From the NCBI GenBank assembly GCA_014240375.1, contig JAAZXB010000005.1, positions 64,297-128,296 on the forward strand: DNA of 64,000 nucleotides, in the 5' to 3' direction. Source of the DNA: Planctomycetota bacterium. GTDB lineage: Bacteria > Planctomycetota > UBA8108 > UBA1146. Position 1 is the first letter of the stretch. Each line of letters starts with the position of its first letter. Of this stretch, positions 2,704-34,130 are shown in pieces. The position numbers and the translations under genes are program-made. The notes beneath the pieces are model-generated. The model saw nothing but the letters and a program-made list of their open reading frames with translations, was not told the DNA's origin and searched no databases.

Positions 2704-3066
2704 TCAACTGGGATCTGAGGTGGCTGCAATCGGCCATTGGTCCCTGGGGAGGACGTTTTTGCCGTCCTTTTTCCCCTGGTAGCGTAATCGAGCAAGCGGC
2801 TTGTCGGCGAGGATCGGCCCCTCCAGAAGCGGTTCGACATCCTCCGAAGTGACCGTGCAATACCACTCTCCCGACGGCTCGATCGCCACCATCGGGCCAT
2901 GACCGCACTGCGCCAGACAGCCGGATTTGACCACTCGAATCTGATCTTGAATTCCCAGTTGGACCACCTTCTGGCGGAAAGCGGCACACAGATCGAGTGA
3001 CCCCTGCTGTGGGCAACTCTTGCCATGAACACAGATCAAAACCAATTGCTGATAGGGACGAGTCAT
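2704..3066 (-). CDS. Thioredoxin-like [2Fe-2S] ferredoxin
   Basis: 120 aa from ATG at 3066. Cys pattern C-x4-C ... C-x3-C (ICVHGKSC ... CLAQCGHGP) typical of the thioredoxin-like ferredoxin family. Directly downstream of, and co-oriented with, the 3071..4702 gene. Confidence 0.6.
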   Translation of the reverse strand: MTRPYQQLVLICVHGKSCPQQGSLDLCAAFRQKVVQLGIQDQIRVVKSGCLAQCGHGPMVAIEPSGEWYCTVTSEDVEPLLEGPILADKPLARLRYQGKKDGKNVLPRDQWPIAATSDPS

Positions 3067-3070
3067 CGAG

Positions 3071-4702
3071 TCATTCCGCGTTGTGCAAGAGGCGAGTGAT
3101 GATGGAGCGGAACAACCCTTCATCCCAGAACATCGGATCGATCATCTCCCACTGCAGAAGTCCCTCGTCATCGATGGCCAGTAACAGAGTCCCTCCGTGA
3201 GATCCAAGGTGCCGCTCGACCACTCCAGCTTCGATCCCCGGCTGAACTCCGAATGACCAGCCGAGTTGATTTTCCAGGGCGATTGCGGTCATTGAGGCCG
3301 CTTCTGTGTCGGCACGGGTATCGCGCAGGACGGAACTGATCCAGACGACCCTGAGGCCCGCCGCGGAGTACTCGATCTCCAGTTTCTTCAGCAAACTGAT
3401 GAAGCGAGATTGGCGGTTGGTCGCACGACTCGAATCACAGAAGAGACGCAGTTCCACTTTCTTCCCTGGATCCTTTTCTGGAGGTGCTTGAATCCAGGTC
3501 AATCCAGCGAGAGAGGGTGCAGGTTTTCCGTGCAGGACATCGATACGATGTGACATCGGTAGAGATTGGAAATCGAGGTAAGTCTTGGTCGCCATCGAGA
3601 TGGTTTCGCCGGAGTTGATCCGCTCGGAGAGTTTCTCATTGTAGGAGAGCAACGCCTGAAGAGCCGCCTCCTTCTCTCCCATCGCCAACTGGTAAAATCC
3701 CTCGTAAAAACCGGCTCGGTCCGCCATCAAGCGGAAGTCTGACTCCTTGCCCGCTGGGATCTGCCACTTCTGATCGGAATCGGGCAGGGAGATCTCTCCG
3801 CCGAGGGATCCCGCCTCCAGCACCGGCCCCCAGAGGCGCCACAAGTCGCGCCCCTGACGAAGGATGCCCAGATGGCGATGAGCCTTGTGGGTGAAGTAGA
3901 CCAGGTGTGGCAGAAACTGTGTTCTGGGATGATCCTTGAGGGCCAGTATTCCCGCAGTCATCATCTCACGGTATCTCTCGGCAATCTCCAGCGCTTCGAT
4001 TTGTTTGATGCGAATCTCGTCAGCATCTTCGAGGGAAGTGTCGAGTTGTAAGGCTCTGCCGAATGCGTCGGCGGATTTTGAAGCGCTTCTAGACTTCAAC
4101 AGGCAATCTCCGAGGATCACCTCCGCTCGGCAACGAAGTGCCGGTGAGATCTTGCTAGCGAGAGCTCTCTCGATGTTTCGCACCACCTCGTCGAGGTAGA
4201 TGAGTTGCTCGTCGAGGCGCTGTTGCGCGGTCATCGGAGCACCAAAGATCTTGGCTTCTTCATTCAATTCACCGAGGTGTCGATCGACATTGAGAATCAG
4301 CATCCGGCCCAGGTCGCAGGCGACGGTCGGGAATCCGCGGCTATCGGCGTGGTTGGCGATGTACTTTCGTCCTGCAGCGATGCCCTCATCGAGGATCAAG
4401 AAAATCCCAGGGAGATCATCGCGAGTCAGGGTCCGAGGATCGGGAATCGATTGCAACTTGGCGGTGACCAGAGCCGCCAGTTCCTCGGCAGATGCACTCT
4501 CCTGAGAGTCGTCGGAGTGAGGAGCGGTGTCCTCGGTGGTGGCTGGATCCTGGCCGTGAAGGAGAGACGACGGCACTTGAAAGGCACAGCAGGCCATCAG
4601 ACAGCAGGCCAGCAGGATGACCGCGCCGATCGCGCTACGACCCACGGTGACAGGTAGAGGGGGTTCAGTGAGGGGAGTTCCGAAGAGTCGGGAGAAGTCC
4701 AT
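3071..4702 (-). CDS. Membrane-anchored protein with a C-terminal TlpA-like thioredoxin-fold domain carrying CxxS (LFCDSSRA) in place of WCGPCR
   Basis: ORF is open to 4972, but the first 90 codons are low-complexity. ATG at 4702 is preceded by a GAAGG Shine-Dalgarno (ribosome-binding) sequence and followed by a TM segment (AIGAVILLACCLMACCAF). C-terminus aligns to the TlpA pattern GKPAP...L.G..W.....VEL.LFCDSS. Confidence 0.45.
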   Translation of the reverse strand: MDFSRLFGTPLTEPPLPVTVGRSAIGAVILLACCLMACCAFQVPSSLLHGQDPATTEDTAPHSDDSQESASAEELAALVTAKLQSIPDPRTLTRDDLPGIFLILDEGIAAGRKYIANHADSRGFPTVACDLGRMLILNVDRHLGELNEEAKIFGAPMTAQQRLDEQLIYLDEVVRNIERALASKISPALRCRAEVILGDCLLKSRSASKSADAFGRALQLDTSLEDADEIRIKQIEALEIAERYREMMTAGILALKDHPRTQFLPHLVYFTHKAHRHLGILRQGRDLWRLWGPVLEAGSLGGEISLPDSDQKWQIPAGKESDFRLMADRAGFYEGFYQLAMGEKEAALQALLSYNEKLSERINSGETISMATKTYLDFQSLPMSHRIDVLHGKPAPSLAGLTWIQAPPEKDPGKKVELRLFCDSSRATNRQSRFISLLKKLEIEYSAAGLRVVWISSVLRDTRADTEAASMTAIALENQLGWSFGVQPGIEAGVVERHLGSHGGTLLLAIDDEGLLQWEMIDPMFWDEGLFRSIITRLLHNAE

Positions 4703-5102: not shown

Positions 5103-5882
5103 ATGGTCACTTTCCTGGTCTCAGGATTATTCTTGATTCAATTGTCGATCTCGGGGCAGGAGGCCCCTGGGCAGAGCCCTGCACCGGTTGAGCAACAGGC
5201 GGACTCGCCCGAAAGTGCCATCACCTCACCGATCACCCTGATCGGAAAGGAAGCACCGGAGTTGATCCTTTCCGATCTCTCGGGCAAGAGTTTTGACCTC
5301 TCCAGCCTGTCCGATCAGATCGTGGTGATGGAGTGGACCCTGCCAGAATGTCGTTTCAACCGCCGCATCTATGCTCAACACAAGATGATTCCGATGATGC
5401 GCCGCTGGGGCAAGCAGGGCGTCCGGTGGGTCAGTGTCAATTCGGCATTTTTTGCCCATCCGGCCAAGGTCCAGTCCTGGATCGACAAGTACAAGATCCA
5501 AAATCCCTACCTGTTCGATCCTACGGGGAGCTGTGCCGAGGCGTTCGGAGTCAAGAATAGCCCGACCTATCTGGTGCTGGATCGGGGAAAAATCGTCTAC
5601 CACGGTGCGCTCGACGATGACGTCTGGGGCTCAAAAACGGATCGGAAGCAATATCTCGATCAGGCGATCGGTCAGGTGGTCGAAGGAGTCGCGGTAGCCA
5701 ATCCGTTGACTCGCACCTATGGCATGGAGATTCGAACGCGCAGGACCGAGGATCTACGCCGCGCTGCCCTGAAGAAGATGCGTGAAGAAGCCCTCGAGCG
5801 TGAAGCGAATCCAGCTACCCCACCCGCAGAAGGTACCCCGCCCGCAGAAGTCGAGTCTTCCGAGGAGGATGGCCGCGAGTAA
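5103..5882 (+). CDS. Secreted TlpA/redoxin-like thiol-disulfide oxidoreductase homolog with a TxxC motif (WTLPEC)
   Basis: GGAGAGGAAC Shine-Dalgarno sequence then ATG at 5103. Hydrophobic signal segment. TlpA signature GKEAPE...LSGKSFDLSSL...VVMEWTLPECR...PTYLVLDRGKIVY. Confidence 0.6.
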   Translation: MVTFLVSGLFLIQLSISGQEAPGQSPAPVEQQADSPESAITSPITLIGKEAPELILSDLSGKSFDLSSLSDQIVVMEWTLPECRFNRRIYAQHKMIPMMRRWGKQGVRWVSVNSAFFAHPAKVQSWIDKYKIQNPYLFDPTGSCAEAFGVKNSPTYLVLDRGKIVYHGALDDDVWGSKTDRKQYLDQAIGQVVEGVAVANPLTRTYGMEIRTRRTEDLRRAALKKMREEALEREANPATPPAEGTPPAEVESSEEDGRE

Positions 5883-5883
5883 C

Positions 5884-6100
5884 TTTGGCTGCAGTGTTAT
5901 TGGCTGCCGTGTTCTTGGCTGCAATGACCTTGGCTGCCGTGTTTTTGGCTGCGAGTAACTTTGGCTGCGAGTAACTTTGGCTGCGAGTGTTTTTGGCCGC
6001 GAGTAACTTTGGCTGCAGTGTTTTTGGCCGCGAGTAACTTTGGCTGCAGTGTTTTTGGCTGCAGTGTTTTTGGCTGCAGTGACTTCTTGTGCCAGCCTCT
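5884..6100. repeat. About 14 tandem copies of a 15-bp unit (GGCTGCAGTGTTTTT, with variants GGCYGCGAGTAACTT and GGCTGCCGTGTTCTT)
   Basis: Periodicity of 15 visible directly. Sits between the redoxin stop (5882) and the mraY-like start (6203). Would encode LAAVF/AAKNT pentapeptides if translated. Confidence 0.8.
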
Positions 6101-6202: not shown

Positions 6203-7300
6203 GTGCTGTACTGGGTCGGGCAACAATTCGAAAGCCTCTGGGGACCGATGCGCTTGCTCCAGTCGCATCTGGTGCTCTGCACCCTGGGTGCGATGTTTGC
6301 GGCGGTCGGGTCCTTTTTCGTGCTACGCCGTTGGGCGGGTACTCTACCGCTCGATCGTGGTCGAGAGCATGCCGCCCAGGCGACGGAGGCGATCGGGAAA
6401 CCGACCGGTGCTGGCGCTCTGTTCATCCCCGTCACCGTCCTGGTGGCCTTGCTGGTGAGCCCATGGGACCCCTTCCGCGCGGTGATCTTACTCTGCGTGC
6501 TGCTGGCGATGGGGGCCGGGTATCTCGATGATCGATCTCCCAATTCTTGGGGAAGGGTGCGCAAGGGCCTGATCGATCTGGCGATCTCGATGGTCGTTGC
6601 CTGGGCGATGATCGGTGGAGAATCGTCGATCGAGATCTGGTTGCCCTTCTTCGCCCCGAAGATGGGGCCGGAAGCGCTGCTCGATGGAACCACCGGGATG
6701 CTGGCGCCGATCTTGTGTCAGCCGTGGCAGTACGGAGTGATGGCCACCCTGCTGCTGTGGTTCACCATCAATAGCACCAACTGTTCCGATGGAGTCGATG
6801 GACTCTCGGGGAGTTTGCTCTCACTGGCCCTGCTAGGACTGGGTGGGGTTCTCTACGGCGTGGTCGGGCACATCGACTCGGCGCATTACCTGCTCGTTCC
6901 CTTCTACGAGGATGGAGCCAGTTGGGCGGTGGTGGTCGCCACCACTCTCGGGACGCTGGCGGCCTACCTCTGGTTCAATGCTCATCCATCTCAGTTGATG
7001 ATGGGAGATGCGGGCTCTCGAGCGCTGGGATTGTTGCTGGGAGTGTTCGTGCTGGCGACGGGGAATCCGTTTCTACTGCTGGTGGTGGCGCTACTGCTCC
7101 TCGCCAATGGAGGCACCGGTCTGTTCAAGATCGGGTTCATCAAGTACCTCAAACTAGACCTCATCCGCATCCGCTGCCCGCTGCACGATCACTTCCTCAA
7201 GAATTGTGGTTGGTCGAGCACCCAGGTGCTGGTCAGGTTTGTCATCCTGCAGGCGGTGTTGGCACCCTTGCTGATCGTGATCCTGCTCAAGGTGCGCTGA
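6203..7300 (+). CDS. mraY: Phospho-N-acetylmuramoyl-pentapeptide transferase-like polyprenyl-phosphate sugar-phosphate transferase (MraY/WecA GT4 family)
   Basis: 365 aa polytopic protein. NSTNCSDGVDGL (N-x-x-N-x-x-DGxDGL), MGDAGSRALG, and C-terminal HDHF..GWS...V.RF all match MraY. GTG start. Not embedded in a visible dcw cluster. Confidence 0.6.
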   Translation: MLYWVGQQFESLWGPMRLLQSHLVLCTLGAMFAAVGSFFVLRRWAGTLPLDRGREHAAQATEAIGKPTGAGALFIPVTVLVALLVSPWDPFRAVILLCVLLAMGAGYLDDRSPNSWGRVRKGLIDLAISMVVAWAMIGGESSIEIWLPFFAPKMGPEALLDGTTGMLAPILCQPWQYGVMATLLLWFTINSTNCSDGVDGLSGSLLSLALLGLGGVLYGVVGHIDSAHYLLVPFYEDGASWAVVVATTLGTLAAYLWFNAHPSQLMMGDAGSRALGLLLGVFVLATGNPFLLLVVALLLLANGGTGLFKIGFIKYLKLDLIRIRCPLHDHFLKNCGWSSTQVLVRFVILQAVLAPLLIVILLKVR

Positions 7301-7512: not shown

Positions 7513-7632
7513 GAGCAAAAGGAACCAGAGCGTCAGAGTCCAGAGCGTCAGAGTCCAGAGCGTCAGAGTCCAGAGCGACAGAGTCCAGAGCGACAGAGTC
7601 CAGAGCGACAGAGTCCAGAGCGACAGAGTCCA
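7513..7632. repeat. Eight tandem copies of a 15-bp unit CAGAGCG(T/A)CAGAGTC
   Basis: Direct repeats in the intergenic region between the mraY-like gene and the 7775..8905 gene. The only ORFs across it are repeat-generated (SESRA/TESRA). Confidence 0.75.
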
Positions 7633-8970: not shown

Positions 8971-10332
8971 CTACTTCAAGGCTTTCTGAAGGGACTTCTC
9001 CAGTTGCTCATAACTCTGATAGCCCGCTTCTCGGCCGACCACATTACCTTTGCGGTCGATGAAATAGACCGTGGGTAACCTCTTTAAATGATACTGTTGA
9101 AATCCAACTCCATCGCCCCGGATCAGCATTCTCTGCTGTAACTGGTTCTCCTGAACGAACTCCCGGATGCGGGTCCGGCCGTCATTGTCAGCATTTATTG
9201 CCAATACCTCGACATTTTTGCTCCTGAAGTCCTTCTGGATCTTGCTGAGGTGCGGAGACTCCGCACGACAGGCACCTCACGAATAACCCCAGAACGCCAC
9301 CATCAAGGTCTTCCCCTGGAAATCGGACAGGTTCACCATCTTCCCGTCGAGACCCTCAAGGGAGAAGTCGGGGGCTGGCTTCCCCATCATCTTCTTTGCT
9401 CGAACATCTGGATCGAGCGGTTGGGACGCGATCTTTTTGCTCGATTTGAGCAGAGAAGCGACCTCCTCCACGACTTCAGCCAGGGGGCCCTTCTTGTGGT
9501 CCTTCTGTCCCTTCTCGAACATCTTCTCCGCCATCTCGACCGCCGCCAGCGACATCCCCTTGCGCAGGACTCTCACCACCGGGGCGAGGAATTCATAGGC
9601 CTCTTCGACCTGCTGCGATTCCTCCTCCTCGATCAGTCCCGCTTCCAGTCTCTCGACTCGCAAGGTGCGCTCCTCGGAGGTGGCGTTCTCTTCATCGCCA
9701 CGCAGCAAGGTGGCTGCCCATTCCGCTCGCTTCAGCGATCCGCCGCCACTCAGGTACAATGTTTCCTTGAACGCACTCAGGCGCAACGCTCTGGCGCCTC
9801 CGCGGATCTGGATCTGGCCCCCGGCCAGCAGGCCCGTCAGGATCAGTTGCCCATCGTCGTCGATCGCTTCGGTTCGTTCGACCGAGATCTGCCTTCTCAA
9901 TCCGACCGGGGTGCCATCGGCCCAGCCCAGCCCAGCTCCCTCGGATCCCGCCCCGTGGACCGAGAGCAACATCTCCATCACTGCAGGGGAGAGGGGATCG
10001 AACAGTTCCGGTCTCGGTTTGCCGGAGCCGCGGATCATCATCGAACCGATGGGGAATCCGCCCGGATAGGTGCCATTGGAAGCGGTCGCACGCCAGACCC
10101 AGCGGTTTCCACCGGGTGCTGGGATCTGGAAGATGGTGACCTCGAATTCGAGGACCTCTTCTCCCCGGGTTCTCTCGACCTTCCAGACCGCTTTCGCCGA
10201 AGGATTCTGTTCCTCTTCATCATTGCCAGCCTGGGCCGGAAGGGAGGTGGGTTGGAGCAGAGACAGCATCAGGGATGCGAGTAACACGCTACCCAGATGA
10301 GTCTTGAGTCGATCAATTGTCATACAGATCAC
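8971..10332 (-). CDS. Secreted TlpA-like thiol:disulfide oxidoreductase selenoprotein candidate. In-frame UGA (9277..9279) gives a UxxC motif (FWGYS-U-GAC-RAE).
   Basis: ORFs 9277..10332 and 8971..9204 are in the same frame, separated only by a TGA. The joined sequence GKPAPDFSLEGLDGKMVNLSDFQGKTLMVAFWGYS[U]GACRAESPHL...VEVLAINADND...PTVYFIDRKGNVV is a complete TlpA domain. The TGA sits exactly at the first Cys of CxxC. Hairpin GTGCGGAG-A-CTCCGCAC at 9250..9266, 11 nt 3' of the UGA on the mRNA. N-terminal signal peptide. Confidence 0.7.
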
Positions 10333-11437: not shown

Positions 11438-11603
11438 CGCCTCATCCTGGCGACTGAAGAGTCCTCTGGATCGCCATCATCCTCGGCGACTGCTCCCCCT
11501 GCTCACTGCCGGAACCCACTGGCTTCGGGTGTCACCGTCGATCGGATCGGATATCCTCCGGGCAAGGGCCGCCAGAGGGCGAGGCGATCCCGGGAGGACT
11601 TCC

Positions 11604-14993: not shown

Positions 14994-15036
14994 CGCATGA
15001 CCTGGATGAACTGAACGACCAACGGAGGAGGGTGTC

Positions 15037-15621
15037 ATCGGTTGGCATGAAAGCCTGAAACAAGCTCAAGAGGAAGCGCAGGTCGATGAACGACCGATCC
15101 TGATCATCCTCGAGGCACCCGGCTGACTCGGTTGCAAGCGCCTGGATACCGTGACGTATCCAGATCCTCACTTCATCGCTGCCGTCGATTCGCTGGTAGC
15201 GCCGATTCGCATCAATATCGCCGATCGTCACGAGGACTTTCGCGATGCGACGGTGATGACCAAGATCCCCTTTTCACCTCGATTCCGCCTCTTCAGTTGC
15301 GACCGTAAGCGGTTACTGCGGGAATGGACCGGTTGGATGCCCACCGCGGAGCTGATCGCCGAGTTCCACATCGCCCGCGGTATCGATCGGCTGGAACGGA
15401 AGGATCCGGCAGCAGCGGCGGATCAGTTCGATTCTGCGCTGGCGGCTGCCGAGGATGGACCGGCCACCGCAGAGATCCTCTACCGCAGGGGGATGGCCGC
15501 CTTCATCGCAGGGAAGTTTGACTGGCAGCCACTGAGGAGAGACTGGAACCGAGTGGTCGAAGAATTTCCAGGCACTCGCTGGGCTCACCACGCATCGGTC
15601 ATCGAGGATGCTCCGCAGTGA
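15037..15621 (+). CDS. Thioredoxin-family selenoprotein candidate. In-frame UGA (15124..15126) gives a UxxC motif (EAPG-U-LGC-KRLD). Paralog of the WCGWC lipoprotein at 33174..34130.
   Basis: The frame from 15010 reads ...EEGVIGWHESLKQAQEEAQVDERPILIILEAPG[TGA]LGCKRLDTVTYPDPHFIAAV.... This aligns residue by residue with KDILINFTGSDWCGWCKKLEGEVF of the 33174 gene, with TGA at the first Cys. Hairpin GGATAC-cgtgac-GTATCC at 15144..15161, 18 nt 3' of the UGA. Start uncertain: strong GGAGGAG Shine-Dalgarno sequence at 15025-31 but no ATG/GTG/TTG before the TGA. ATC at 15037 is the best-spaced candidate. Confidence 0.55.
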
Positions 15622-25051: not shown

Positions 25052-25194
25052 GCGATTTCCCCCTCTCCGATCCTCAGTTCTGGTGGGTGACGCTACTGGC
25101 CGTGGCAGCGGTGGTACTGCTGATCGTGAAACGAGTTCGTCAGTCGAACGATCAGGACCAGAACGGTTCTTGCGGTGGTTGTTCCACGAAATAG
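25048..25194 (+). CDS. FeoB-associated Cys-rich small membrane protein
   Basis: 48 aa. Start ATG overlaps the feoB stop (ATGA). Single TM helix (WWVTLLAVAAVVLLIV) followed by GSCGGCS. Matches the FeoB-associated Cys-rich peptide family. Confidence 0.6.
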   Translation: MSDFPLSDPQFWWVTLLAVAAVVLLIVKRVRQSNDQDQNGSCGGCSTK

Positions 25195-25291
25195 CCGCGG
25201 TTGGCGCTGGAACTCTATCCCATTCAATGTTTGGATGCCGAGGGTTCACTGCTCTGAATCGTTTCGGAAATCAAGTTAGGAGTCCTGTCCA

Positions 25292-26473
25292 ATGAAGATG
25301 ATTGCTACTCATGCATTTCTCTTGCTGAAGGTGACCATCCTCCTTTGCATCGCGCCGATCCACGGTTCCGCATCGACAGTGGTGATTCTCGACGATCCAG
25401 CTCCCGCGGTGGTTACCAAGGCACAGGAGACTGCCGCACGCAATGCGCTGGACAAGATGCAGAAGCGGATGGATGAGGCGTGGACCGAGTACCTGGCCCC
25501 GCTGCGAGAAGCGAAGACTGCCGAGGAACGAGATGCCATCGAATTGGATCCAGAAAAGGATCCGGGTGTGATGTTCCTGCCTGAATTGTTCAAGTTCAGC
25601 AGTGACCATCCGGGGACTGCTGCGTGTCTCGAAGCTCTTTCTCAGGTGATCTCGATGGCCTCGCGAGATGAAAAGAACCGCTGGATGCTCAAGCAGGTGG
25701 TCGATCGGATCATCCTCGAATACATCGAGCATGAAGAACTCAAGGATCTGGTGCGCTTTGGTCATTACAACCCACCTTCTCCAGAAAACTTGTCATTGCT
25801 GAGAGCGGCTGCCGACCGATCTCCTCACCGAACCGTTCAGGGCTCTGCTTTCTATGCTCTTGGAAAACTGCTCGGATCTTCAGAAGAGACGAGAGCCGAG
25901 GGGAAGCAACTCCTCCAACGGGTCCAGAAGGAGTATGCGGATGTGCCATTTTTTCGGGAGACCACCTATGGCGAGAAGGTCGCAGGAGATCTGTTTGAAC
26001 TGGATCATCTGCAGGTCGGGCAAGTGGCGCCAGAGATCATCGGTACCGGACTCGATGGGGATCTGATGCAACTCTCCGCGTTTCGCGGCAAGGTGGTACT
26101 GCTCGATTTCTGGGGTGATTGGTGAGGCCCTTGCCGGGCGATGTACCCACACGAGCGGTCGCTCGTGAAGAAACACTCCGCGGATCAATTTGCCATCGTC
26201 GGGGTCAACTCGGAGAATACCATCGAAGCTGCTCGCGAAGCGGTGAAGAAAAACAAGCTGACCTGGAAGAACTTCTACGATGGGGGTGGGGCCAACCCCA
26301 CCTCTGGTCCCATCGCCACTCGCTGGAATGTCAGCGGCTGGCCCACCACCTATCTTCTCGATGAAAATGGCGTGATTCGCTACAAGGATGTCCGAGGTGA
26401 AACTCTCGACGCAGCACTCGAGACTCTGATCGATCAGTGGAAGGCGGCCCGGGAGGCGGAGGCGAAACTCTAG
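25292..26473 (+). CDS. Secreted TlpA-like thiol:disulfide oxidoreductase selenoprotein candidate. In-frame UGA (26123..26125) gives a UxxC motif (FWGDW-U-GPC-RAM).
   Basis: ORFs 25292..26125 and 26141..26473 share a frame across a single TGA. The joined sequence FRGKVVLLDFWGDW[U]GPCRAMYPHERSLVKKHSADQFAIVGVNSE...WPTTYLLDENGVIRYK is a textbook TlpA/ResA domain with TGA at the first Cys. Hairpin ACGAGCG-gt-CGCTCGT at 26151..26166, 26 nt 3' of the UGA. Signal peptide MKMIATHAFLLLKVTILLCIAPIHGSAS. TAG stop. Confidence 0.7.
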
Positions 26474-26561
26474 CGATCACTCAGGCGAGTTCGTCGTCGA
26501 TCGAGGAGCGTTGTGCCCTATGGGACAACGATTCGATCGAGCCCCCTGACCCGGATGGAGT

Positions 26562-26604
26562 GGGGAGGGAGCAGCCGGTTCCGGCTGTTTCCTCCCCTTT
26601 CTTC
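26562..26604 (+). terminator. Candidate rho-independent terminator after the 25292..26473 gene
   Basis: Nested GC stem GGGGAGGGAGCAGCCGG-tt-CCGGCTGTTTCCTCCCC followed by TTTCTTCG. Confidence 0.45.
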
Positions 26605-27103
26605 GAATCGGAGCCCACCCACAGTTCCTCGAAACCAGCGATTCCTCAAGACCAGCGATCGAACCGAGGGACAGACGCAGCAGCAGCAGGCTGCCGCCTA
26701 GCATCCACCCTAGCGGAGTCCGCGAATCGCTGGCGTTTCATGCTGAAGCCACCAGGGGGCGAACCGGGTCAGCAGCAGGGAACCGTATCCGAGCAATGAC
26801 AGCGTGATCTTTGGACCTTCGCTCCACGGAGTCCGTTCGATTCGATGCAGGAGCACGAAGAGCAGTAGTGCGAGTGAGATGCTGGGGTCGTGGATGCTGG
26901 GGTCGTGGATGATGGCGAGCATCTACTGCGGTGAATCCACCGGAGCGTCCCGAATACTGAAGAAGTGCCACGAATCCACCGAGCAGGACCGTCAGCAAGA
27001 ACAGGGTCAGGAGTACTTGCGTCGATGGATTGACCCTGGCCAGGGTCAAGCGGGCTTGCTTGTAGAATCGAGTCACTGGACCGGTGCGCCCGTGAGATTG
27101 AAG

Positions 27104-27508
27104 CTATGAAGGGACGGGAATGGCGAGGATCGAGGAAGCGACCTGCTCACTGATTCCGACACGGCTTCCATCGATATCGAGGATGCAGGTCCCTCTCGAT
27201 TGACACAGGTGAAGATCGCAGTCGTTGCACAGGCCCATCGCTTCGAGCAGGGGCCGGTGGGATTCGGGCACCGATTCGCGAACCAGACGGATCCGTTGGC
27301 CTCGATTCAGATCCCTCAGCAAGCGGGGAGCGACAGGGGAGAAGTCGATGGTAGATGAGCGAGGAGTAGATGAGTGAGGAGTAGATGAGTGAGGAGTAGA
27401 TGAGTGAGGAGTAGATGAGTGAGGAGTAGATGAGTCGACAATCCGGGACTGCTGCGGGAGGGAGGTGGAGCCCAGCGGATCCTGGTTGGAGTTTTCTCGA
27501 AACATCAA
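27104..27508 (-). CDS. feoA: FeoA-family (SH3-like) small protein with an N-terminal (SSTPH)x5 repeat and a CxxC-containing core
   Basis: C-terminal GQRIRLVRESVPESHRPLLEAMGLCNDCDLHLCQSRGTCILDIDGSRVGISEQVASSI fits the FeoA pattern (G.R..V.......rL..mGl.pG..i.v.....i.v.g..i.l....A..I). In-frame 15-bp tandem repeat at about 27355-27430. Divergent from the DtxR-like gene. Confidence 0.55.
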   Translation of the reverse strand: MMFRENSNQDPLGSTSLPQQSRIVDSSTPHSSTPHSSTPHSSTPHSSTPRSSTIDFSPVAPRLLRDLNRGQRIRLVRESVPESHRPLLEAMGLCNDCDLHLCQSRGTCILDIDGSRVGISEQVASSILAIPVPS

Positions 27509-27654
27509 TTCCTCCTCGAAAGGCCTGGATCGCCAGAAATGGCGGATTGTCTCACCGCTCCGGTGCGGCTACCCTTGTCAGGTGCTCTGGCACCGGCGGC
27601 AAGTCCGCTCTCATGAATGAGAGTGTAGCGATCTGTTCGGGGGGGTGTCAACAT

Positions 27655-27670
27655 GTTTGGGCTGCCAAAC
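27655..27670. promoter_or_regulatory. Palindromic candidate operator GTTTGG-gctg-CCAAAC (extended arms acaTGTTTGG / CCAAACttgt) in the feoA / DtxR-like divergent promoter
   Basis: Same core as 22521..22536 upstream of the feoB operon. 80-95 bp upstream of the regulator start at 27750. Confidence 0.4.
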
Positions 27671-27749
27671 TTGTCGGCTGTAATAGCCACCAAGGGTGCC
27701 AATGCTGGCCTTTGCGGCGAGTTCTGGCTCTGACCTTTCAGGAGGATTC

Positions 27750-28298
27750 GTGAGCGACTGGCGAGAATTCGAGCAGAATCCCGTAAGCCACTCGGCGGCA
27801 CATCACCTGACCACCATCCAGTGGCTCCTCGATGATCAGGGATATGCCCGCGTCTCCGATGTGGCGAGGCACCTGGGCATCACCCGAGGCAGTGTCTCGG
27901 TCACACTCAAGGGGCTGCGCCAGCGAGGCCTGGTGGTCGAGGATGATCACAAGCACCTTTCTCTGTCGGAGGAAGGAGTTCAAATCGCCCGAGGAATTCG
28001 AACCAAGCGGGTCCTGATCCAGGCACTTTTTCGTGAAGTACTGGGAGTTCCCGACGAGGTGGCAGAACAAGATGCCTGCAAGGTCGAGCACCTCATCAGC
28101 GACCAGACCGCAGAAGCTACCGGTGGTTTCCTGGTCGGGTTGGAGAAGATCTCCTCCGACTCGCAGTGGACTCACTTGCTCGAATCTCTTCAGCGGCTAG
28201 CCGCTGCCACTCCTGCCTCCTTCCCGGGCAGTGCGACGCAAGAGCTGGCTCTTCGACTCGAGAAGAAGGACCCCCAAGGTGAGGATCAACCATCATGA
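27750..28298 (+). CDS. DtxR/MntR-family metal-dependent transcriptional repressor (two-domain form, no SH3 tail)
   Basis: AGGAGGA Shine-Dalgarno sequence then GTG at 27750. HTH and metal-site region HHLTTIQWLLDDQGYARVSDVARHLGITRGSVSVTLKGLRQRGLVVEDDHKHLSLSEEG. Confidence 0.75.
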   Translation: MSDWREFEQNPVSHSAAHHLTTIQWLLDDQGYARVSDVARHLGITRGSVSVTLKGLRQRGLVVEDDHKHLSLSEEGVQIARGIRTKRVLIQALFREVLGVPDEVAEQDACKVEHLISDQTAEATGGFLVGLEKISSDSQWTHLLESLQRLAAATPASFPGSATQELALRLEKKDPQGEDQPS

Positions 28299-28747
28299 CC
28301 CGAATCATCTCTCGCACCGAAGCGATTGAAAAACTCAACGGCTTGCTCGCCGAGGAACTGGAGGCCTCGATCCGTTACTTGCACCTCAGTTCGATGGTGC
28401 AGGGGATCGATCGATTGATCGTTCAAAAGGTCCTGCAAGAGAATCACGAGGAGACGATCGAACACGCTCAACAGGTCAGCGAAAAGATCCTTCAACTCGG
28501 TGGCAATCCGACTCCCAGAATCCAACTCGATCTCGATGGTCGGCGATATTCTGGCCCGCAGGCGATCGCAGTGGCGCTGATCTTTGAACAGGCAGCGCTC
28601 GATGGTTACCGGGATCTGCTCGACCATGTCGACGGTAGTGGGGATGTGGTGCTGGAGGAGTTTGCCCGACAGCAGGTGGCTGTCGAATCGGAGCACGTCG
28701 CTCAACTACAGATGCTGCTGGTGGAGACTCCTGTTGGCGATCAGTGA
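28295..28747 (+). CDS. Ferritin-like (Dps/ferritin superfamily) four-helix-bundle protein
   Basis: LNGLLAEELEASIRYLH...ENHEETIEHAQQVSEKILQLGGNP. Start overlaps the regulator stop (ATGA), so an operon with the DtxR-like gene. Confidence 0.6.
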   Translation: MTRIISRTEAIEKLNGLLAEELEASIRYLHLSSMVQGIDRLIVQKVLQENHEETIEHAQQVSEKILQLGGNPTPRIQLDLDGRRYSGPQAIAVALIFEQAALDGYRDLLDHVDGSGDVVLEEFARQQVAVESEHVAQLQMLLVETPVGDQ

Positions 28748-30112: not shown

Positions 30113-31182
30113 TCGATTCTTCATCGTTACTGAGGATCGAGCAATTGAGCCATCGCTTCGGCGACAAGGTGGCGATCGATCACGTCGACTGGAAACTCGA
30201 CCAGTGCGGAGTAGTGGGGCTGGTCGGTCCCAACGGTGCCGGTAAGACCACCCTCTTCTCGCTGATCGCCGGGTTCCTTCGCGTGCAAGGGGGCTCGATT
30301 GAAGTGCTGGGAGGTGCCGCTCCGGGATCTCGATCGCTGGTCAGCCGGGTCGCGGTGATGCCGCAGGATGCCATCTTCGCCCGCGATGTCTCGATCGTCG
30401 ATCAGATGCTGTTTCTCCGAGCGCTCGATGGGGTGACCGGGACCATCGCTCGCCAGGAGGTGGTTGCAGCGCTCGAGAGCGTCGGGCTCGCCGACCAACT
30501 GGATCGAGGTGCGGCGGTTCTCTCTCATGGGATGGGAAAAAGACTCGGTGTGGCTCAGGCGATCCTCGGGTCACCAGAACTGATTCTACTCGATGAGCCG
30601 ACCGCCGGGCTCGACCCTGCCAATGCGCTGCAGGTGCGTGATTTGATTCGAAGTCTCGGAAAAAAAGCGCTGGTCATCGTTTCATCCCACAATCTGCTGG
30701 AGTTGCAGGATCTGATCGACGAGGTGGCGGTGATCGTCGCTGGAAGGATGGTCGCCAGTGGCCCGATCGACGAGGTGACAGGTTCCGCTCGCAGGTTCGA
30801 ACTGCGGCTGGGTCGGGTGATCTCCCCCGGGGAATTGCAACAGATCCGCGATGAGGAACTGGTGCGCGGAGTCAGCCAGGATGGGACTCAACTGACGGTG
30901 GATCTCGATGCCAGTGCCGATGGGGGTCTCGATGCGGCGCTGGATCAACTTCTCCATCGATTACTGAAACTGGCAGCCCCTCCTCGTCAATTGAGAGAGG
31001 GCGCGAGTCTCGAGGAAGCGTATCTGAGATTGACAGGCGAGTCGGAGCAGGAAGCCGCGCCGCTCGATGATCGAACTGAAGATGATCGAACTGAAGATGA
31101 TCGAACTGAAGATGATCGAACTGAAGATGATCCAGATGAGTCCGATGCTCCGGCAGCAGCAAAAACTAGCGACGATCGGTAG
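30109..31182 (+). CDS. ABC transporter ATP-binding protein with a C-terminal (DDRTE)x4 acidic repeat
   Basis: Walker A GPNGAGKTT, Q-loop, signature LSHGMGKRL, Walker B LILLDEPTAGLD, H-loop SSHNL. In-frame 15-bp tandem repeat at about 31066-31130. Confidence 0.85.
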   Translation: MIDSSSLLRIEQLSHRFGDKVAIDHVDWKLDQCGVVGLVGPNGAGKTTLFSLIAGFLRVQGGSIEVLGGAAPGSRSLVSRVAVMPQDAIFARDVSIVDQMLFLRALDGVTGTIARQEVVAALESVGLADQLDRGAAVLSHGMGKRLGVAQAILGSPELILLDEPTAGLDPANALQVRDLIRSLGKKALVIVSSHNLLELQDLIDEVAVIVAGRMVASGPIDEVTGSARRFELRLGRVISPGELQQIRDEELVRGVSQDGTQLTVDLDASADGGLDAALDQLLHRLLKLAAPPRQLREGASLEEAYLRLTGESEQEAAPLDDRTEDDRTEDDRTEDDRTEDDPDESDAPAAAKTSDDR

Positions 31183-33136
31183 TGCCCGCGGGGGGTGGTG
31201 AGTTCTGTTCGCTGAGCTGAGCACGCTGGCGAAACGAGGTCGCTTCCTCGGAGATCCCGGCCTGGTCGAGCAGGTCGGCGATGTTTCGCAGCAATTCCGG
31301 TTCCTCGCCGATCCAGCCGACCAACGCCTGCAGGTGACGTGCCGCCGCTTCCGCTTGTCCTCTTTGAAATGCTGAAAGGGCCTGACGGCGGGCCAGGTCA
31401 CCTCTCAAATTCACCAGTGCGAGACGGTTCCCGAGTCGTTCTCGCTGACTGTCGAGCCACCGGGCCAGTGCCTGTGGCCCCTCTTGCAACTCCACGAGTT
31501 GACCGTAGCGAACCAGCAGGTCATCGCTGCTCTTTTCCTCCAGTGCCAGTCTCCACCACGAACTTGCACCGATGAGGTCACCACTGACCGCACTCATGTA
31601 GCCCAATTTTTCTTCGAGGATGGTCCCTGGTGGTTCCAGCAGGGCGAAGCCACCGCGCGAGAAGTGGCGGCAGCGCTGCAGATGCTGCACTGCTAGAGCT
31701 GCCGACTCCTTCAACTGCGGTGAGATCGGCGGCTGGCCTGGAATCAGCACCTGATCGAGATTGACCTGGGCTTCGTTGAAGTGCCGGTCGGCCTGCACTT
31801 CATTCCAGCGAGTGTGGCCCGCCGACAAGGTCAGCAGGATGCTCGAGATGGTGATCGCCAGCAGGATCAAACCGGGTGTGGTGATGGCGCCCGTTCGTCG
31901 CAATTGCTGCCCTTGAAGTGAAACATCCTGGCGGCGCAGAAATTGAAGACTCTTCCAGATCAGGAACGAGACGCTGATGGCGATGCCGGTGGCCATCAGC
32001 ATCGGGATCTGATCGTAGACTCCGCGCCAACTGAACCAGATCAGTGCACAGAGGATGGCGAGGCTCACCTCTCCCTGCAGTGAAAGGTGCGTATTGCGGG
32101 TCGGCGCGATGGCTTTGGCCAGAGGATTCCAGGCGCCCTTCCCGAAGGAGAGCACTCCGTTGGGACACACATCGACGCAATCGAGACACTTCATGCAGCC
32201 CGGATCGACCACCTGGGAGTGAATCTTGATCTCCCGTGAGATCTGAACATTGGAGGTGCAGTTGGCGGTGCACAGTCCGCACGATTCACACGCATCCATG
32301 TTGGCCACGATGGCCATCGGAGAGATCCGATCCGCCACCGAGAAGAAGGCGCCATAGGGACATCCGTAAGTGCAGAACCCCTTCGATCCGAGCAGGTAGA
32401 CGGTGGCGAAGCCACACACCAGGAAGAACGGGATGGCGATCCACCAGGAGGGGAAGGTGGCCCAGAAATCGGCGACCATCAGGTGATCGGTGAATCCAAC
32501 CCACGGGCGAACGGGATCGATCCAACTCGCCACCGTTGCGAACTGACCCTCGAACCAGGGCAGACCCCACCGCTTGAGGGTGGGCCACAGGAACATGTAG
32601 AAGGCGAGCAGAAACGGTACCCAGCCGAGCAGTCGAGAACGAAACGGTTGCGGGCGAATACCGATCTTTCTCATCATCCAGCCGCAGAGATCCTGTAGAG
32701 CCACCATGTGGCAAGCCCAGCCGCAGAACCAGCGTCCCAGGAGAGCAGTGGAGAGGATCGCCACGATGAAGAAGATGAAACCCGCATTCACCTGACCATT
32801 CTCGAGGGTGTACATCGACTCCGATGGCTCGACCGGGGAGAGGGTGGTGCCGGTGATGACCCAGTGCAGCAGGTGAAGTCCGATGAGCAGGTGGACGGCA
32901 CCGAGAGCGATCGCTCGACGGCGACCCGATCGGCCAGGGGATCGAGCAGCAGGCCTTCTGTATCCCTCGCACCCCTCACGTGGTTTACCCGTTCTGGCCA
33001 AACTGTCCTCCGTCGACGAGATCATAGCCTCCCGAGCGCTGCGTGAGAACTGCACCGATCGGATCGTGGCGATCCGCCCTGGAAGGGGAATCGAACCGTT
33101 CAAAAAAGGTGGCCGGGTCGATCCCGACCCGGCCAC
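31166..33136 (-). CDS. Polyferredoxin-type 4Fe-4S membrane protein (NapH/MauN/CcoG-like) with a C-terminal helical-repeat extension
   Basis: TM helices, CGWAC motif (RWFCGWACHMVALQD), and two ferredoxin Cys clusters (CESCGLCTANC, CMKCLDCVDVCP). 3' end overlaps the convergent ABC ATPase by 17 nt. Confidence 0.65.
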   Translation of the reverse strand: MAGSGSTRPPFLNGSIPLPGRIATIRSVQFSRSAREAMISSTEDSLARTGKPREGCEGYRRPAARSPGRSGRRRAIALGAVHLLIGLHLLHWVITGTTLSPVEPSESMYTLENGQVNAGFIFFIVAILSTALLGRWFCGWACHMVALQDLCGWMMRKIGIRPQPFRSRLLGWVPFLLAFYMFLWPTLKRWGLPWFEGQFATVASWIDPVRPWVGFTDHLMVADFWATFPSWWIAIPFFLVCGFATVYLLGSKGFCTYGCPYGAFFSVADRISPMAIVANMDACESCGLCTANCTSNVQISREIKIHSQVVDPGCMKCLDCVDVCPNGVLSFGKGAWNPLAKAIAPTRNTHLSLQGEVSLAILCALIWFSWRGVYDQIPMLMATGIAISVSFLIWKSLQFLRRQDVSLQGQQLRRTGAITTPGLILLAITISSILLTLSAGHTRWNEVQADRHFNEAQVNLDQVLIPGQPPISPQLKESAALAVQHLQRCRHFSRGGFALLEPPGTILEEKLGYMSAVSGDLIGASSWWRLALEEKSSDDLLVRYGQLVELQEGPQALARWLDSQRERLGNRLALVNLRGDLARRQALSAFQRGQAEAAARHLQALVGWIGEEPELLRNIADLLDQAGISEEATSFRQRAQLSEQNSPPPAGTTDRR

Positions 33137-33173
33137 CTTTTGATGGATTCTCGAACATTGGCGTCAAGCGGCT

Positions 33174-34130
33174 CTAGTGATCGGGTACTCCGTCGCCGTC
33201 GTGATCGTGACCGTCGGTGGCATCATGGTCGATGCCATGGATCGCATCTTCGATCATCTTGCGACCGCGCTCGTTGTCCTTGACCTCCGGGCTCTTCAAC
33301 ATCCGGTTGAGGAACAGCTTGGCGCCATCCTTGTCTCCTTGCTCAGCCAGCCAGCCCTGGCAGAACCACAGTGCATTGAGCACCTCGGGGCCGCCCATTT
33401 CTGAATTGTCCTTGAGGAACTGCACCAGTGTCGGGAAGTCAGGATCCTGGGTATTGAGCAATTTCAACAGCTGTCCACGAGCCCGATGAGAAGCGGCCTT
33501 CTTGACCAGTTCCGGGTTGTCGGACTTCTCCGCCATATCGAGGAACTTACCGAAGGCGGGAAACCCGAGCAGGCCCTGATCCGCCATCACTTCGAATGCG
33601 TCCGGCAGCATATCACCCTGTTGAGCCTCATCTTCGGTGGCGAGCAACGCCTTGATCTTGTCGCCCTTGGCACGCAATTCGACGATGTGCTCGAGGTATT
33701 TTTCTGGCCCGCCCGGCTGATACCCTGTCTTGGCATAGGGGCGCATCTGGTGATCTGCCAGGATGATGGTGGGGAATCCGTCCACTCCCATCTCATCGCG
33801 GCTTTTTCCATTGAGCATTTCATCCACGACCTTGGCCTTCGCCTCTTCGCTGCGAGGGAAGTCGAGGTACAGGTAGATGTACTGCTTACCGGCGGTTTCA
33901 TGGAACGCTGGCAGTGAGAACACCTCGCCCTCGAGTTTCTTGCACCAACCACACCAGTCACTTCCGGTGAAGTTGATGAGGATGTCCTTACCCTCTTTAC
34001 GAGCCATTTCCTTGGCGGCACCGATATCCATCATCCAGGGGAGTCCTACCTCGGCCGCAACAGTCTCGGGTTCGTCACCGAGGGCCAGCGGAGAGCAGGC
34101 CAGGAAAGCCGTCAGAAAAATCATCGACAT
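33174..34130 (-). CDS. Thioredoxin-family lipoprotein (WCGWC active site)
   Basis: GGAGA Shine-Dalgarno sequence then ATG at 34130. Lipobox-like MSMIFLTAFLACSPL. Thioredoxin motif KDILINFTGSDWCGWCKKLEGEVF. Immediately upstream of, and co-oriented with, the polyferredoxin. Confidence 0.7.
   Translation of the reverse strand: MSMIFLTAFLACSPLALGDEPETVAAEVGLPWMMDIGAAKEMARKEGKDILINFTGSDWCGWCKKLEGEVFSLPAFHETAGKQYIYLYLDFPRSEEAKAKVVDEMLNGKSRDEMGVDGFPTIILADHQMRPYAKTGYQPGGPEKYLEHIVELRAKGDKIKALLATEDEAQQGDMLPDAFEVMADQGLLGFPAFGKFLDMAEKSDNPELVKKAASHRARGQLLKLLNTQDPDFPTLVQFLKDNSEMGGPEVLNALWFCQGWLAEQGDKDGAKLFLNRMLKSPEVKDNERGRKMIEDAIHGIDHDATDGHDHDGDGVPDH

What the first reader, a model, noticed from the sequence alone, without database searches (positions are those of the whole stretch)
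2704..34130. A natural C/U/T/S series of thioredoxin-fold active sites within 31 kb
The window encodes at least six TlpA/thioredoxin-fold domains with different first or second active-site residues:
- CxxC (33174..34130, WCGWC)
- UxxC x3 (9277, 15124, 26123)
- TxxC (5103..5882, WTLPEC)
- CxxS (3071..4702, FCDSSR)

Several are secreted or membrane-anchored. Two sit next to electron carriers: a thioredoxin-like [2Fe-2S] ferredoxin at 2704..3066 and a polyferredoxin at 31166..33136.

This density and variety suggest an expanded, selenium-dependent periplasmic thiol-redox network rather than a single TlpA for cytochrome maturation.
Basis: inference. Interest (0 to 1): 0.6.

Follow-up and report, generated by a model that had tools for sequence, protein, structure and literature searches.

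The report
Three selenocysteine thioredoxin-fold genes, marine planctomycete
This stretch of an uncultured marine planctomycete genome carries three real selenocysteine-containing thioredoxin-fold genes and three cysteine-type relatives, all of kinds already catalogued in ocean metagenomes, and nothing shows they form one dedicated redox system.

Summary
Six thioredoxin-fold proteins and a thioredoxin-like [2Fe-2S] ferredoxin lie between 2.7 and 34.1 kb.

The three in-frame UGA codons (9279-9277 minus strand, 15124, 26123) are genuine selenocysteine (Sec) candidates:
- They are conserved in independent assemblies and in relatives down to about 31-49% protein identity.
- Coding conservation continues past each UGA.
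- Each is followed by a 7-8 bp hairpin whose loop starts 20-34 nt downstream.
- Synonymous sites downstream of each UGA, where the hairpin lies, are unusually conserved.
- TGA is otherwise this organism's commonest stop codon.

The "C/U/T/S series" is misdescribed. WTLPEC is TxxxC, and profile alignment places its only Cys at the first CxxC position (CRFN). The "CxxS" motif is C-D-S-[S/N] in a domain recognisable as thioredoxin fold only from a predicted structure.

The real set is CGWC, UGAC, ULGC, UGPC, CRFN and CDSS.

The genes are interleaved with housekeeping genes (EF-G, IleRS, FeoB, Dps) on both strands. One selenoprotein has no signal peptide. No DsbD/CcdA or ccm partner is present.

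UxxC Prx-like and Trx-like selenoproteins have been known since 2004-2008. Verdict: new members of known kinds. A selenium-dependent periplasmic network is not demonstrated.

The parts
2704..3066 (-). Thioredoxin-like [2Fe-2S] ferredoxin candidate, 120 aa, no signal peptide. Its start is 4 nt downstream of the stop of the 3071-4702 gene.
   Evidence: NCBIfam 2Fe-2S ferredoxin models NF041613/NF041612: 42 bits, E 1e-10, below their cut-offs. Pfam PF01257: 20.7 bits against 24.8. The Cys pattern Cx5C...Cx3C is kept in the L043 ortholog.
3071..4702 (-). 543-aa protein with an N-terminal membrane anchor or signal, a TPR-like superhelix, and a C-terminal degenerate TlpA-like thioredoxin-fold domain. 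Active-site tetrad CDSS at 3428-3439.
   Evidence: No Pfam, NCBIfam or PDB sequence hit. AlphaFold models have pLDDT 82 and 84.5. All top 50 Foldseek PDB hits are TlpA/DsbE/ResA/Prx folds, best E 2e-6, TM 0.6-0.7. The family motif is C-D-S-[S/N]-R.
5103..5882 (+). Secreted 259-aa one-Cys thioredoxin-fold protein of the 2ywi/3u5r type (AhpC-TSA). Tetrad CRFN at 5349-5360.
   Evidence: AhpC-TSA 43.8 bits. PDB 2ywi and 3u5r at E 1e-8. hhalign aligns Cys83 with U of the TlpA-type selenoproteins. The ortholog reads TLPSCRFA.
8971..10323 (-). Selenoprotein A, 450 aa: signal peptide, about 300-aa N-terminal domain, C-terminal TlpA/ResA-like domain with UGAC. The Sec codon TGA is at 9279-9277.
   Evidence: AhpC-TSA 81 bits. 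TGA is present in 8 JGI contigs and in orthologs at 49-75% identity. All 20 database orthologs are called truncated at about 345 aa, i.e. at the UGA.
9250..9266 (-). SECIS-like hairpin of selenoprotein A: GUGCGGA-GUC-UCCGCAC, loop starting 20 nt from the U of UGA.
   Evidence: Fold. Nucleotide-invariant in all orthologs. Identical codons at 9 of 13 synonymous sites here against 11 of 55 elsewhere, p=0.001.
15037..15621 (+). Selenoprotein B, 194 aa, no signal peptide: N-terminal Thioredoxin_7-like domain 'APGULGC' and a TPR-like C-terminal half. Sec codon at 15124-15126. The only in-frame candidate start is ATC at 15037, after GGAGGAGG.
   Evidence: Thioredoxin_7 30.5 bits. The frame upstream of the UGA and the TGA itself are conserved in 6 relatives at 31-85% identity that have ATG or GTG starts. 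Cys-form homologs carry CxxC at this position.
15142..15163 (+). SECIS-like hairpin of selenoprotein B: CUGGAUAC-CGUGAC-GUAUCCAG, loop starting 26 nt from the U.
   Evidence: Fold. The core 6 bp are paired in 7 of 7 relatives, and one pair occurs as AU, GU and GC. The shuffle control does not single it out.
25292..26473 (+). Selenoprotein C, 393 aa: signal peptide, helical N-terminal domain, C-terminal TlpA-like domain with UGPC. Sec codon at 26123-26125.
   Evidence: Redoxin 62 bits. TGA is conserved in 4 Planctomycetota MAG species at 80-89% identity, and there is a Cys (TGC) form in a fifth at 42%.
26150..26167 (+). SECIS-like hairpin of selenoprotein C: CACGAGC-GGUC-GCUCGUG, loop starting 34 nt from the U.
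   Evidence: Fold. Invariant in all five relatives, including the Cys form. Synonymous conservation 10 of 13 against 6 of 20, p=0.01.
31166..33025 (-). NapH/MauN-like polytopic membrane Fe-S protein with a long C-terminal helical extension. It lies downstream of, and on the same strand as, the CxxC gene.
   Evidence: Fer4_5 34 bits. TIGR02163 NapH/MauN 67 bits, below the cut-off of 213.
33174..34130 (-). Secreted 318-aa CxxC protein (CGWC at 33942-33953): DsbH/Thioredoxin_7-like domain, helical C-terminal part and a His/Asp-rich tail.
   Evidence: Thioredoxin_2 44 bits, Thioredoxin_7 39 bits. NCBIfam DsbH 90 bits, below the cut-off of 190.

Best explanation
The window is a conserved core-genome segment of an uncultured marine Planctomycetota lineage (closest to the MAGs UBA1146, SI037S4_bin26, UWMA-0276 and ANT-12).

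It encodes three separate selenoproteins of the thioredoxin fold. In each, Sec replaces the N-terminal, nucleophilic Cys of the CxxC motif. Two are exported TlpA/ResA-like domains fused to long N-terminal domains; these belong to the 'Prx-like thiol:disulfide oxidoreductase' kind. The third is a probably cytoplasmic Thioredoxin_7-plus-TPR protein with the motif APGULGC.

Each UGA is followed by its own, unrelated SECIS-type hairpin. This would recruit the Sec-specific elongation factor SelB with Sec-tRNA(Sec), so that UGA is read as Sec. The Sec would then attack substrate disulfides, and the resulting selenenylsulfide would be resolved by the downstream Cys.

Three further thioredoxin-fold proteins nearby are ordinary sulfur variants: CGWC, and the one-Cys forms CRFN and CDSS.

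The genes are old, independently evolved residents of a syntenic region. They are not an operon and not recent duplicates.

Shown here: the UGAs, their conservation, coding conservation on both sides, the hairpins, Cys at the U position in homologs, and the fold assignments.
Inferred: actual Sec insertion, the chemistry, the cellular location and the redox partners.
For: - UGA in frame inside Pfam-supported domains.
- TGA conserved in independent assemblies and divergent orthologs.
- Database orthologs are systematically called truncated at or after the UGA.
- Homologs carry Cys at the U position: L009 WCGPC and CxxC forms of the APGULGC family.
- Each UGA is followed by a 7-8 bp hairpin whose loop starts 20, 26 or 34 nt downstream. 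Only 2.6-4.2% of codon positions have such a hairpin.
- Excess synonymous-site conservation after the UGA: p=0.001, 0.01 and 0.05.
- TGA is the commonest ordinary stop, 25 of 39 genes, so this is not an alternative genetic code.
- Gene order is conserved in a relative at about 50-55% identity.
- The neighbouring genes are unrelated housekeeping genes.
- UxxC Prx-like and Trx-like selenoproteins are catalogued (PMC13188914 Table 1; PMC2398784 Table 2), and Sec machinery is known in some Planctomycetes (PMC4807772).
Against: - No selA, selB, selD or tRNA-Sec gene is in the window: no tRNA was found and no Sec-machinery domain appeared in the Pfam scans. The genome could not be searched.
- 60-nt folding energies are not distinguishable from shuffles (z about -0.9).
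- Covariation in the hairpins is minimal: two are invariant, and one has a single pair with changes on both sides, which does not exceed the shuffles.
- Rfam finds nothing.
- Selenoprotein B has no canonical start codon in this window.
- Seven thioredoxin-fold or related genes in 31 kb, against none in the next 30 kb, is a real local concentration that this explanation treats as unexplained synteny.
Confidence: 0.8

Rival explanations
1. One reading: the six proteins and the two Fe-S proteins form one expanded, selenium-dependent periplasmic thiol-redox network, functionally coupled and co-selected as a cluster.
For: - Seven thioredoxin-fold or thioredoxin-like genes within 31 kb and none in the remaining 30 kb.
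- The order ferredoxin / CDSS protein / CRFN protein / selenoprotein A / selenoprotein B is conserved at about 50% identity.
- Two tight pairs with Fe-S proteins. Five of the six have N-terminal signal or anchor sequences, read directly from the sequence.
Against: - The genes are on both strands and are separated by EF-G, GT4, IleRS, methyltransferases, FeoB, Dps and ABC transporter genes. Conserved synteny of a region that includes essential genes does not imply a functional link.
- Selenoprotein B and the ferredoxin have no signal peptide.
- No DsbD/CcdA or ccm gene was detected.
- The domains are only about 30% identical or less, with unrelated SECIS sequences.
Confidence: 0.15
2. The UGAs are ordinary stop codons. 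The loci would then be split or decaying genes, or N-terminal domains followed by separate small thioredoxin-fragment genes.
For: - TGA is the usual stop codon in this organism.
- Gene callers annotate all these loci as truncated proteins.
- No Sec machinery is visible in the window.
Against: - The UGA sits exactly at the catalytic Cys position in three different genes.
- It is conserved down to 31-49% identity, with purifying selection on both sides.
- A pseudogene would not keep the downstream frame and the hairpin.
- Termination would cut the thioredoxin fold at the loop before helix 1.
Confidence: 0.03
3. The UGAs are sequencing or assembly artefacts, or are read through as a standard amino acid (Cys or Trp) without selenium.
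For: None for the artefact. Read-through without Sec cannot be excluded from sequence alone.
Against: - The same TGA appears in many independent metagenome assemblies and in several MAG species.
- Conserved hairpins at SECIS distance have no role in near-cognate read-through.
Confidence: 0.02

Closest known systems
Prx-like thiol:disulfide oxidoreductase selenoproteins (PF00578/PF08534, UxxC; Kryukov & Gladyshev 2004; 'Prx-like 1/3' of the GOS selenoproteome, PMC2398784; Table 1 of PMC13188914)
   Same: Selenoproteins A and C have an AhpC-TSA/Redoxin domain above Pfam thresholds, a UxxC motif with U in the first position, a bacterial-type hairpin just downstream, and a marine origin.
   Different: Both carry long (about 240-300 aa) N-terminal domains with no Pfam match. 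They come from Planctomycetota and do not reach any NCBIfam equivalog cut-off.
TlpA / ResA / DsbE cytochrome-maturation thiol-disulfide oxidoreductases
   Same: Same fold and the same 'FW..(C/U)xxC' active-site context. These are the best NCBIfam matches (ResA 94 and 68 bits). The proteins are exported.
   Different: Scores are far below the family cut-offs (170 and 230). Sec replaces Cys. There are extra N-terminal domains. No ccm, ResBC or CcdA neighbour is present.
VPGUxxT family thioredoxin-like selenoproteins (NF041382/NF041383, 'OS_HP5') and DsbD-gamma / Thioredoxin_7-type 'thiol:disulfide interchange' selenoproteins
   Same: Selenoprotein B shares the 'PGU' context at the start of a Thioredoxin_7-like domain. 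NF041383 is its best NCBIfam hit (E 1e-5).
   Different: It scores 25 bits against a cut-off of 275. The motif is UxxC, not UxxT. The protein is shorter (194 aa) and has a TPR-like C-terminal half.
2ywi / 3u5r / 2cvb-type Prx-like thioredoxin-fold proteins. From memory these correspond to CDD cd02969 'PRX_like1'; that assignment was not checked here.
   Same: The 5103-5882 protein matches them at E 1e-8 over the whole domain, including the C-terminal 'Y(H/R)G..DD' stretch.
   Different: It has a single Cys (TLPECRFN) where 2ywi has CNHC and 3u5r has SNRC. It has no PxxxTxxC peroxiredoxin motif.

Membership tests
Bacterial selenoprotein gene (UGA-Sec with bacterial SECIS) | In-frame UGA at a position occupied by a redox Cys in homologs | tested here: met
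   L009 has TGC at the U of selenoprotein C. CxxC forms of the selenoprotein B family exist. U of selenoprotein A falls at the first Cys position of the WCxxC site of ResA/TlpA-type domains (read from the motif FWGYSUGAC; domain matches).
Bacterial selenoprotein gene (UGA-Sec with bacterial SECIS) | Protein-level conservation continues on both sides of the UGA in orthologs | tested here: met
   down to 31-49% identity.
Bacterial selenoprotein gene (UGA-Sec with bacterial SECIS) | Stem-loop just downstream of the UGA, apical loop about 16-37 nt from the UGA with G near the start of the loop (bSECISearch-type criteria, recalled from memory) | tested here: met
   Loops start at +20 (GUC), +26 (CGUGAC) and +34 (GGUC) with 7-8 bp stems. 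Background frequency is 2.6-4.2%. Synonymous sites are conserved. Covariation is weak.
Bacterial selenoprotein gene (UGA-Sec with bacterial SECIS) | Genome encodes selA, selB, selD and tRNA-Sec | not testable with these tools
   None in the window: no tRNA and no such Pfam domain.
Prx-like thiol:disulfide oxidoreductase selenoprotein | PF00578/PF08534 domain above threshold with a UxxC motif | tested here: met
   Selenoprotein A 81 and 79 bits; selenoprotein C 60 and 62 bits; cut-offs about 26. Motifs are UGAC and UGPC.
TlpA / ResA (cytochrome c maturation) | Reaches the NCBIfam family cut-off and sits with ccm, ResBC or CcdA genes | tested here: not met
   ResA 94 and 68 bits against 170; TlpA 66 and 53 bits against 230. 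No ccm or DsbD/CcdA domain in any scanned ORF.
VPGUxxT thioredoxin-like selenoprotein (NF041383) | Model cut-off and UxxT motif | tested here: not met
   25 bits against 275. The motif here is APGULGC, which is UxxC.
Peroxiredoxin (the TxxC reading of 5103-5882) | PxxxTxxC motif with Thr three residues before the peroxidatic Cys | tested here: not met
   The sequence is W-T-L-P-E-C (TxxxC), and T-L-P-S-C in the ortholog. hhalign places the Cys at the first CxxC position and the Thr opposite Trp.
Thioredoxin fold (C-terminal domain of 3071-4702) | Detectable by sequence profile | tested here: not met
   No Pfam, NCBIfam or PDB hit with either the single sequence or a 12-sequence profile. hhalign against the TlpA profile gives probability 31%.
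Thioredoxin fold (C-terminal domain of 3071-4702) | Beta-alpha-beta-alpha-beta...beta-beta-alpha topology with Cys at the N-terminus of helix 1; structural match to TlpA-like proteins | tested here: met
   AlphaFold pLDDT 84.5, pTM 0.83. There are 140 Foldseek PDB hits at E<=1e-3. The top 50 are all TlpA/DsbE/ResA/Prx folds with TM 0.6-0.7. This is a predicted structure, not a solved one.
Thioredoxin-like [2Fe-2S] ferredoxin (2704-3066) | Family model score and four Cys ligands | tested here: inconclusive
   Pfam 20.7 bits against 24.8. NCBIfam 42 bits (E 1e-10) against cut-offs of 150-195. The Cx5C...Cx3C pattern is conserved in the ortholog.
NapH/MauN polyferredoxin (31166-33025) | TIGR02163 cut-off | tested here: not met
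   67 bits against 213. The Fer4_5 domain itself passes (34 against 22). The protein is NapH-like rather than a demonstrated NapH.

The most novel reading that the evidence does not exclude
This marine Planctomycetota lineage may be an unrecognised selenoprotein-rich group (six or more selenoproteins per genome) that relies on Sec-based thioredoxin-fold enzymes, several of them exported. Separately, the 'APGULGC' Thioredoxin_7-plus-TPR protein may represent a selenoprotein family that is not yet curated and in which Sec forms outnumber Cys forms: 55 apparently UGA-truncated cluster representatives against about 17 full-length Cys or Ser forms.
Probability: 0.35. Interest if true: 0.45.

Novelty: new member of a known kind. 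Interest (0 to 1): 0.3.

Why it matters
This is mainly an annotation issue. All three genes are called as truncated 'redoxin' or hypothetical proteins in public MAGs, so selenium use by a widespread marine planctomycete lineage goes unrecorded.

Three smaller points could interest selenoprotein specialists:
- the APGULGC family, which appears to be dominated by Sec forms;
- a Cys-form homolog that keeps the exact SECIS hairpin;
- natural one-Cys variants (CRFN, CDS[S/N]) of TlpA-like domains.

None of this changes what is known about how such proteins work. The idea of a dedicated selenium-dependent periplasmic network remains a hypothesis with no specific support.

Tried and rejected
- Rfam scan of the whole window: no family reached threshold, and no SECIS model matched.
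- 60-nt minimum free energy against shuffles: not discriminating, z about -0.9. I replaced it with a count of local hairpins against the background of all codon positions.
- Covariation count on the selenoprotein B hairpin: only one pair changes on both sides, and this does not exceed the shuffles.
- Read-through proteins could not be submitted to the representative search. I used the post-UGA part instead.
- Motif scan for further in-frame UGA candidates and for same-frame ORF pairs split by TGA: nothing credible beyond the three. The pairs 10297-10545/10564-11361 and 16973-20236/16508-16927 share a frame across a TGA, but they look like chance (no redox motif; the latter pair is called as separate genes in relative L021).
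- Alternative genetic code: rejected because TGA is the main stop codon.
- Recent duplication of the U forms: rejected.
- My first reading of the 5103-5882 tetrad as LPEC, from the 2ywi alignment, was dropped. The ResA alignment in the same call and hhalign both give CRFN.


Full report
**Source and context**

The window has about 58% G+C. Its ferritin gene is found, identical, on 24 or more metagenome contigs. The closest genomes are marine Planctomycetota MAGs: UBA1146, SI037S4_bin26, UWMA-0276 and ANT-12.

Pfam scans of essentially all ORFs of 100 aa or more show a housekeeping region. In order it contains:
- EF-G (384-2468);
- a GT4 glycosyltransferase (6203-7300);
- IleRS (11529-14993);
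- methyltransferases;
- a large P-domain surface protein;
- FeoB/FeoA, a DtxR-type repressor and a Dps-like ferritin (23.1-28.7 kb);
- an ABC transporter, a ketoacyl synthase and PdxS;
- a run of amidohydrolase paralogs;
- an AddAB-like helicase-nuclease;
- a molybdopterin oxidoreductase.

No tRNA and no Rfam family was found.

**Checking the six domains**

Pfam supports five of the six claimed domains:

| Gene | Motif | Pfam support |
|---|---|---|
| 33174-34130(-) | WCGWC | Thioredoxin_2 / Thioredoxin_7 |
| 8971-10323(-) | FWGYSUGAC | AhpC-TSA 81 bits |
| 15037-15621(+) | EAPGULGCK | Thioredoxin_7 30.5 bits, plus weak TPR matches |
| 25292-26473(+) | FWGDWUGPC | Redoxin 62 bits |
| 5103-5882(+) | WTLPECRFN | AhpC-TSA 43.8 bits |

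The sixth, the C-terminal part of 3071-4702(-), has no Pfam, NCBIfam or PDB sequence match, even with a 12-sequence profile. I aligned 20 homologs and used them for AlphaFold models.
- The full-length model (pLDDT 82) shows an N-terminal TPR-like superhelix and a C-terminal beta-alpha-beta domain.
- The domain modelled alone has pLDDT 84.5 and pTM 0.83. It gives 140 Foldseek PDB hits at E<=1e-3.
- The top 50 hits are all TlpA/DsbE/ResA/DipZ/Prx-type folds, with TM 0.6-0.7.
- Its invariant Cys sits directly after strand 1, at the start of helix 1. hhalign, though weak (probability 31%), aligns CDSS with UGAC.

So this domain is a degenerate TlpA-like domain. In the family the fourth position is S or N, and the conserved motif is C-D-S-x-R.

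**The 'TxxC' claim fails**

The sequence is T-L-P-E-C, with three residues between T and C. The ortholog has T-L-P-S-C. hhalign against a profile of the window's own TlpA-type selenoproteins (probability 96.9%, E 1.7e-10) puts the single Cys opposite U and the Thr opposite the Trp of 'FW'. The ResA alignment agrees.

The closest solved structures are 2ywi (CNHC) and 3u5r (SNRC) at E 1e-8. Their ungapped alignment is compatible with this register. The tetrad is therefore CRFN (CRFA in the ortholog), making this a one-Cys variant and not a peroxiredoxin-type TxxC.

The true set of active sites is CGWC, UGAC, ULGC, UGPC, CRFN and CDSS.

**Are the UGAs selenocysteine codons?**

Selenoprotein A (9279-9277):
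- TGA is present in 8 JGI contigs at 94-99% identity and in four orthologs at 49-75% identity.
- All 20 orthologs in the 5.8-billion-protein database are called at about 345 aa, which means they stop at the UGA.

Selenoprotein C (26123):
- TGA is present in four MAG species at 80-89% identity.
- A homolog at 42% identity (L009) has TGC at this position.

Selenoprotein B (15124):
- All 21 close homologs are post-UGA fragments.
- In six relatives at 31-85% identity, the upstream frame, the 'APGULGC' motif and the TGA are all conserved, with normal ATG or GTG starts.
- The exhaustive search found 122 cluster representatives. Of these, 55 begin just after the tetrad and about 17 are full length: 15 CxxC, one SxxC and one CxxS.

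Hairpins:
- Each UGA is followed by a perfect 7-8 bp hairpin. The loop starts at +20 (GUC), +26 (CGUGAC) or +34 (GGUC).
- Only 4.2% of 18,207 codon positions in this window's genes have such a hairpin, and 2.6% have one with G early in the loop.
- Synonymous sites in the 16 codons after the UGA are conserved more than elsewhere: 9/13 against 11/55 (p=0.001), 10/13 against 6/20 (p=0.01), and 4/13 against 2/31 (p=0.05).

Limits of this evidence:
- 60-nt folding energies do not stand out from shuffles.
- Covariation is minimal.
- The Sec machinery could not be looked for.

TGA is the commonest ordinary stop (25 of 39 genes), which excludes a reassigned code.

**Organisation**

The three Sec domains are not recent duplicates. 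Selenoproteins A and C are 30% identical in the thioredoxin domain. Selenoprotein B and the CxxC protein share only a weak 45-residue match. The three hairpins are unrelated in sequence and position.

By inspection, five proteins start with a signal peptide or anchor. Selenoprotein B and the ferredoxin do not.

In a relative at about 50-55% identity (GCA_964422295.1, L043) the order is retained: EF-G / ferredoxin / CDSx protein / CRFx protein / GT4 / selenoprotein A / IleRS / selenoprotein B. This includes the 4-nt junction between the CDSx gene and the ferredoxin gene.

So the concentration is a stable feature of a core region that also holds essential genes. There is no operon structure beyond two pairs: 3071-4702 with 2704-3066, and 33174-34130 with 31166-33025. 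No DsbD/CcdA or ccm partner was detected.

**Comparison with what is known**

UxxC 'Prx-like thiol:disulfide oxidoreductase' and 'thiol:disulfide interchange' selenoproteins are listed as high-confidence families (PMC13188914, Table 1). They are among the most abundant selenoproteins in ocean metagenomes (PMC2398784, Table 2). Planctomycetes with complete Sec machinery have been described (PMC4807772).

None of the window's proteins reaches an NCBIfam equivalog cut-off. Selenoprotein B's best hit is the VPGUxxT selenoprotein family, at 25 bits against a cut-off of 275.

**Verdict**

These are real selenoprotein genes and new members of known kinds. The graded 'C/U/T/S series' and the 'selenium-dependent periplasmic network' are, respectively, partly wrong and unproven.

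Noticed in passing
window 15004-15040: Selenoprotein B has no ATG, GTG or TTG between the upstream stop (15007-15009) and the UGA. ATC at 15037, 5 nt after GGAGGAGGG, sits exactly where relatives have their start (ATG in L021 and L023; GTG is inferred for L025 and L027). This is either a non-canonical ATC start or a start-codon mutation in this strain.
   Followed up: partly
L009 3262-3330 (MAG JBCBOT010000087.1): A Cys-form (TGC) homolog of selenoprotein C, only 42% identical overall, keeps the exact nucleotide sequence of the SECIS hairpin and its flank (ATGTACCCACACGAGCGGTCGCTCGTGAAG). This may be a recent Sec/Cys switch that left a fossil SECIS.
   Followed up: partly
window 15037-15621; proteins P0072-P0190: In the APGULGC family, 55 cluster representatives start just after the tetrad, which suggests UGA-truncated calls. 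About 17 are full-length CxxC, SxxC or CxxS forms. Sec forms may outnumber Cys forms. The UGA was verified in 7 of 7 loci inspected.
   Followed up: partly
window 5870-6081, 7525-7632, 27351-27435, 31066-31132, 63498-63569: There are several tandem arrays with a 15-bp period (13 bp for the last one). The largest has about 13 copies of TTGGCTGCAGTGTTT and lies in the intergenic region after the 5103-5882 gene. Others overlap the ends of predicted ORFs and would read as five-residue peptide repeats there (7525-7632, 27351-27435).
   Followed up: no
window 39849-50851: Seven consecutive same-strand ORFs all match Amidohydro_1/Amidohydro_3 in their C-terminal parts (the first only weakly). This looks like a tandem paralog array.
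   Followed up: no
window 23093-28747: Selenoprotein C lies 240 nt downstream of feoB, inside an iron cluster: FeoB, a FeoA-like gene, a DtxR-type repressor and a Dps-like ferritin. The arrangement is the same in the independent contigs L001-L004.
   Followed up: no
window 16508-20236 (-): The 1087-aa P-domain surface protein ends with TGA (16973-16975). The DUF4870 gene downstream is in the same frame. This is probably chance, since relative L021 has them called as separate genes, but it was not examined further.
   Followed up: no
window 59130-63514: A fused 4Fe-4S/NrfD membrane protein is followed by a 991-aa molybdopterin oxidoreductase, resembling a polysulfide or tetrathionate reductase or an alternative complex III module. 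It has no in-frame UGA.
   Followed up: no
window 33174-33240 (-): The CxxC protein ends in a His/Asp-rich tail (HGIDHDATDGHDHDGDGVPDH), which suggests metal binding.
   Followed up: no
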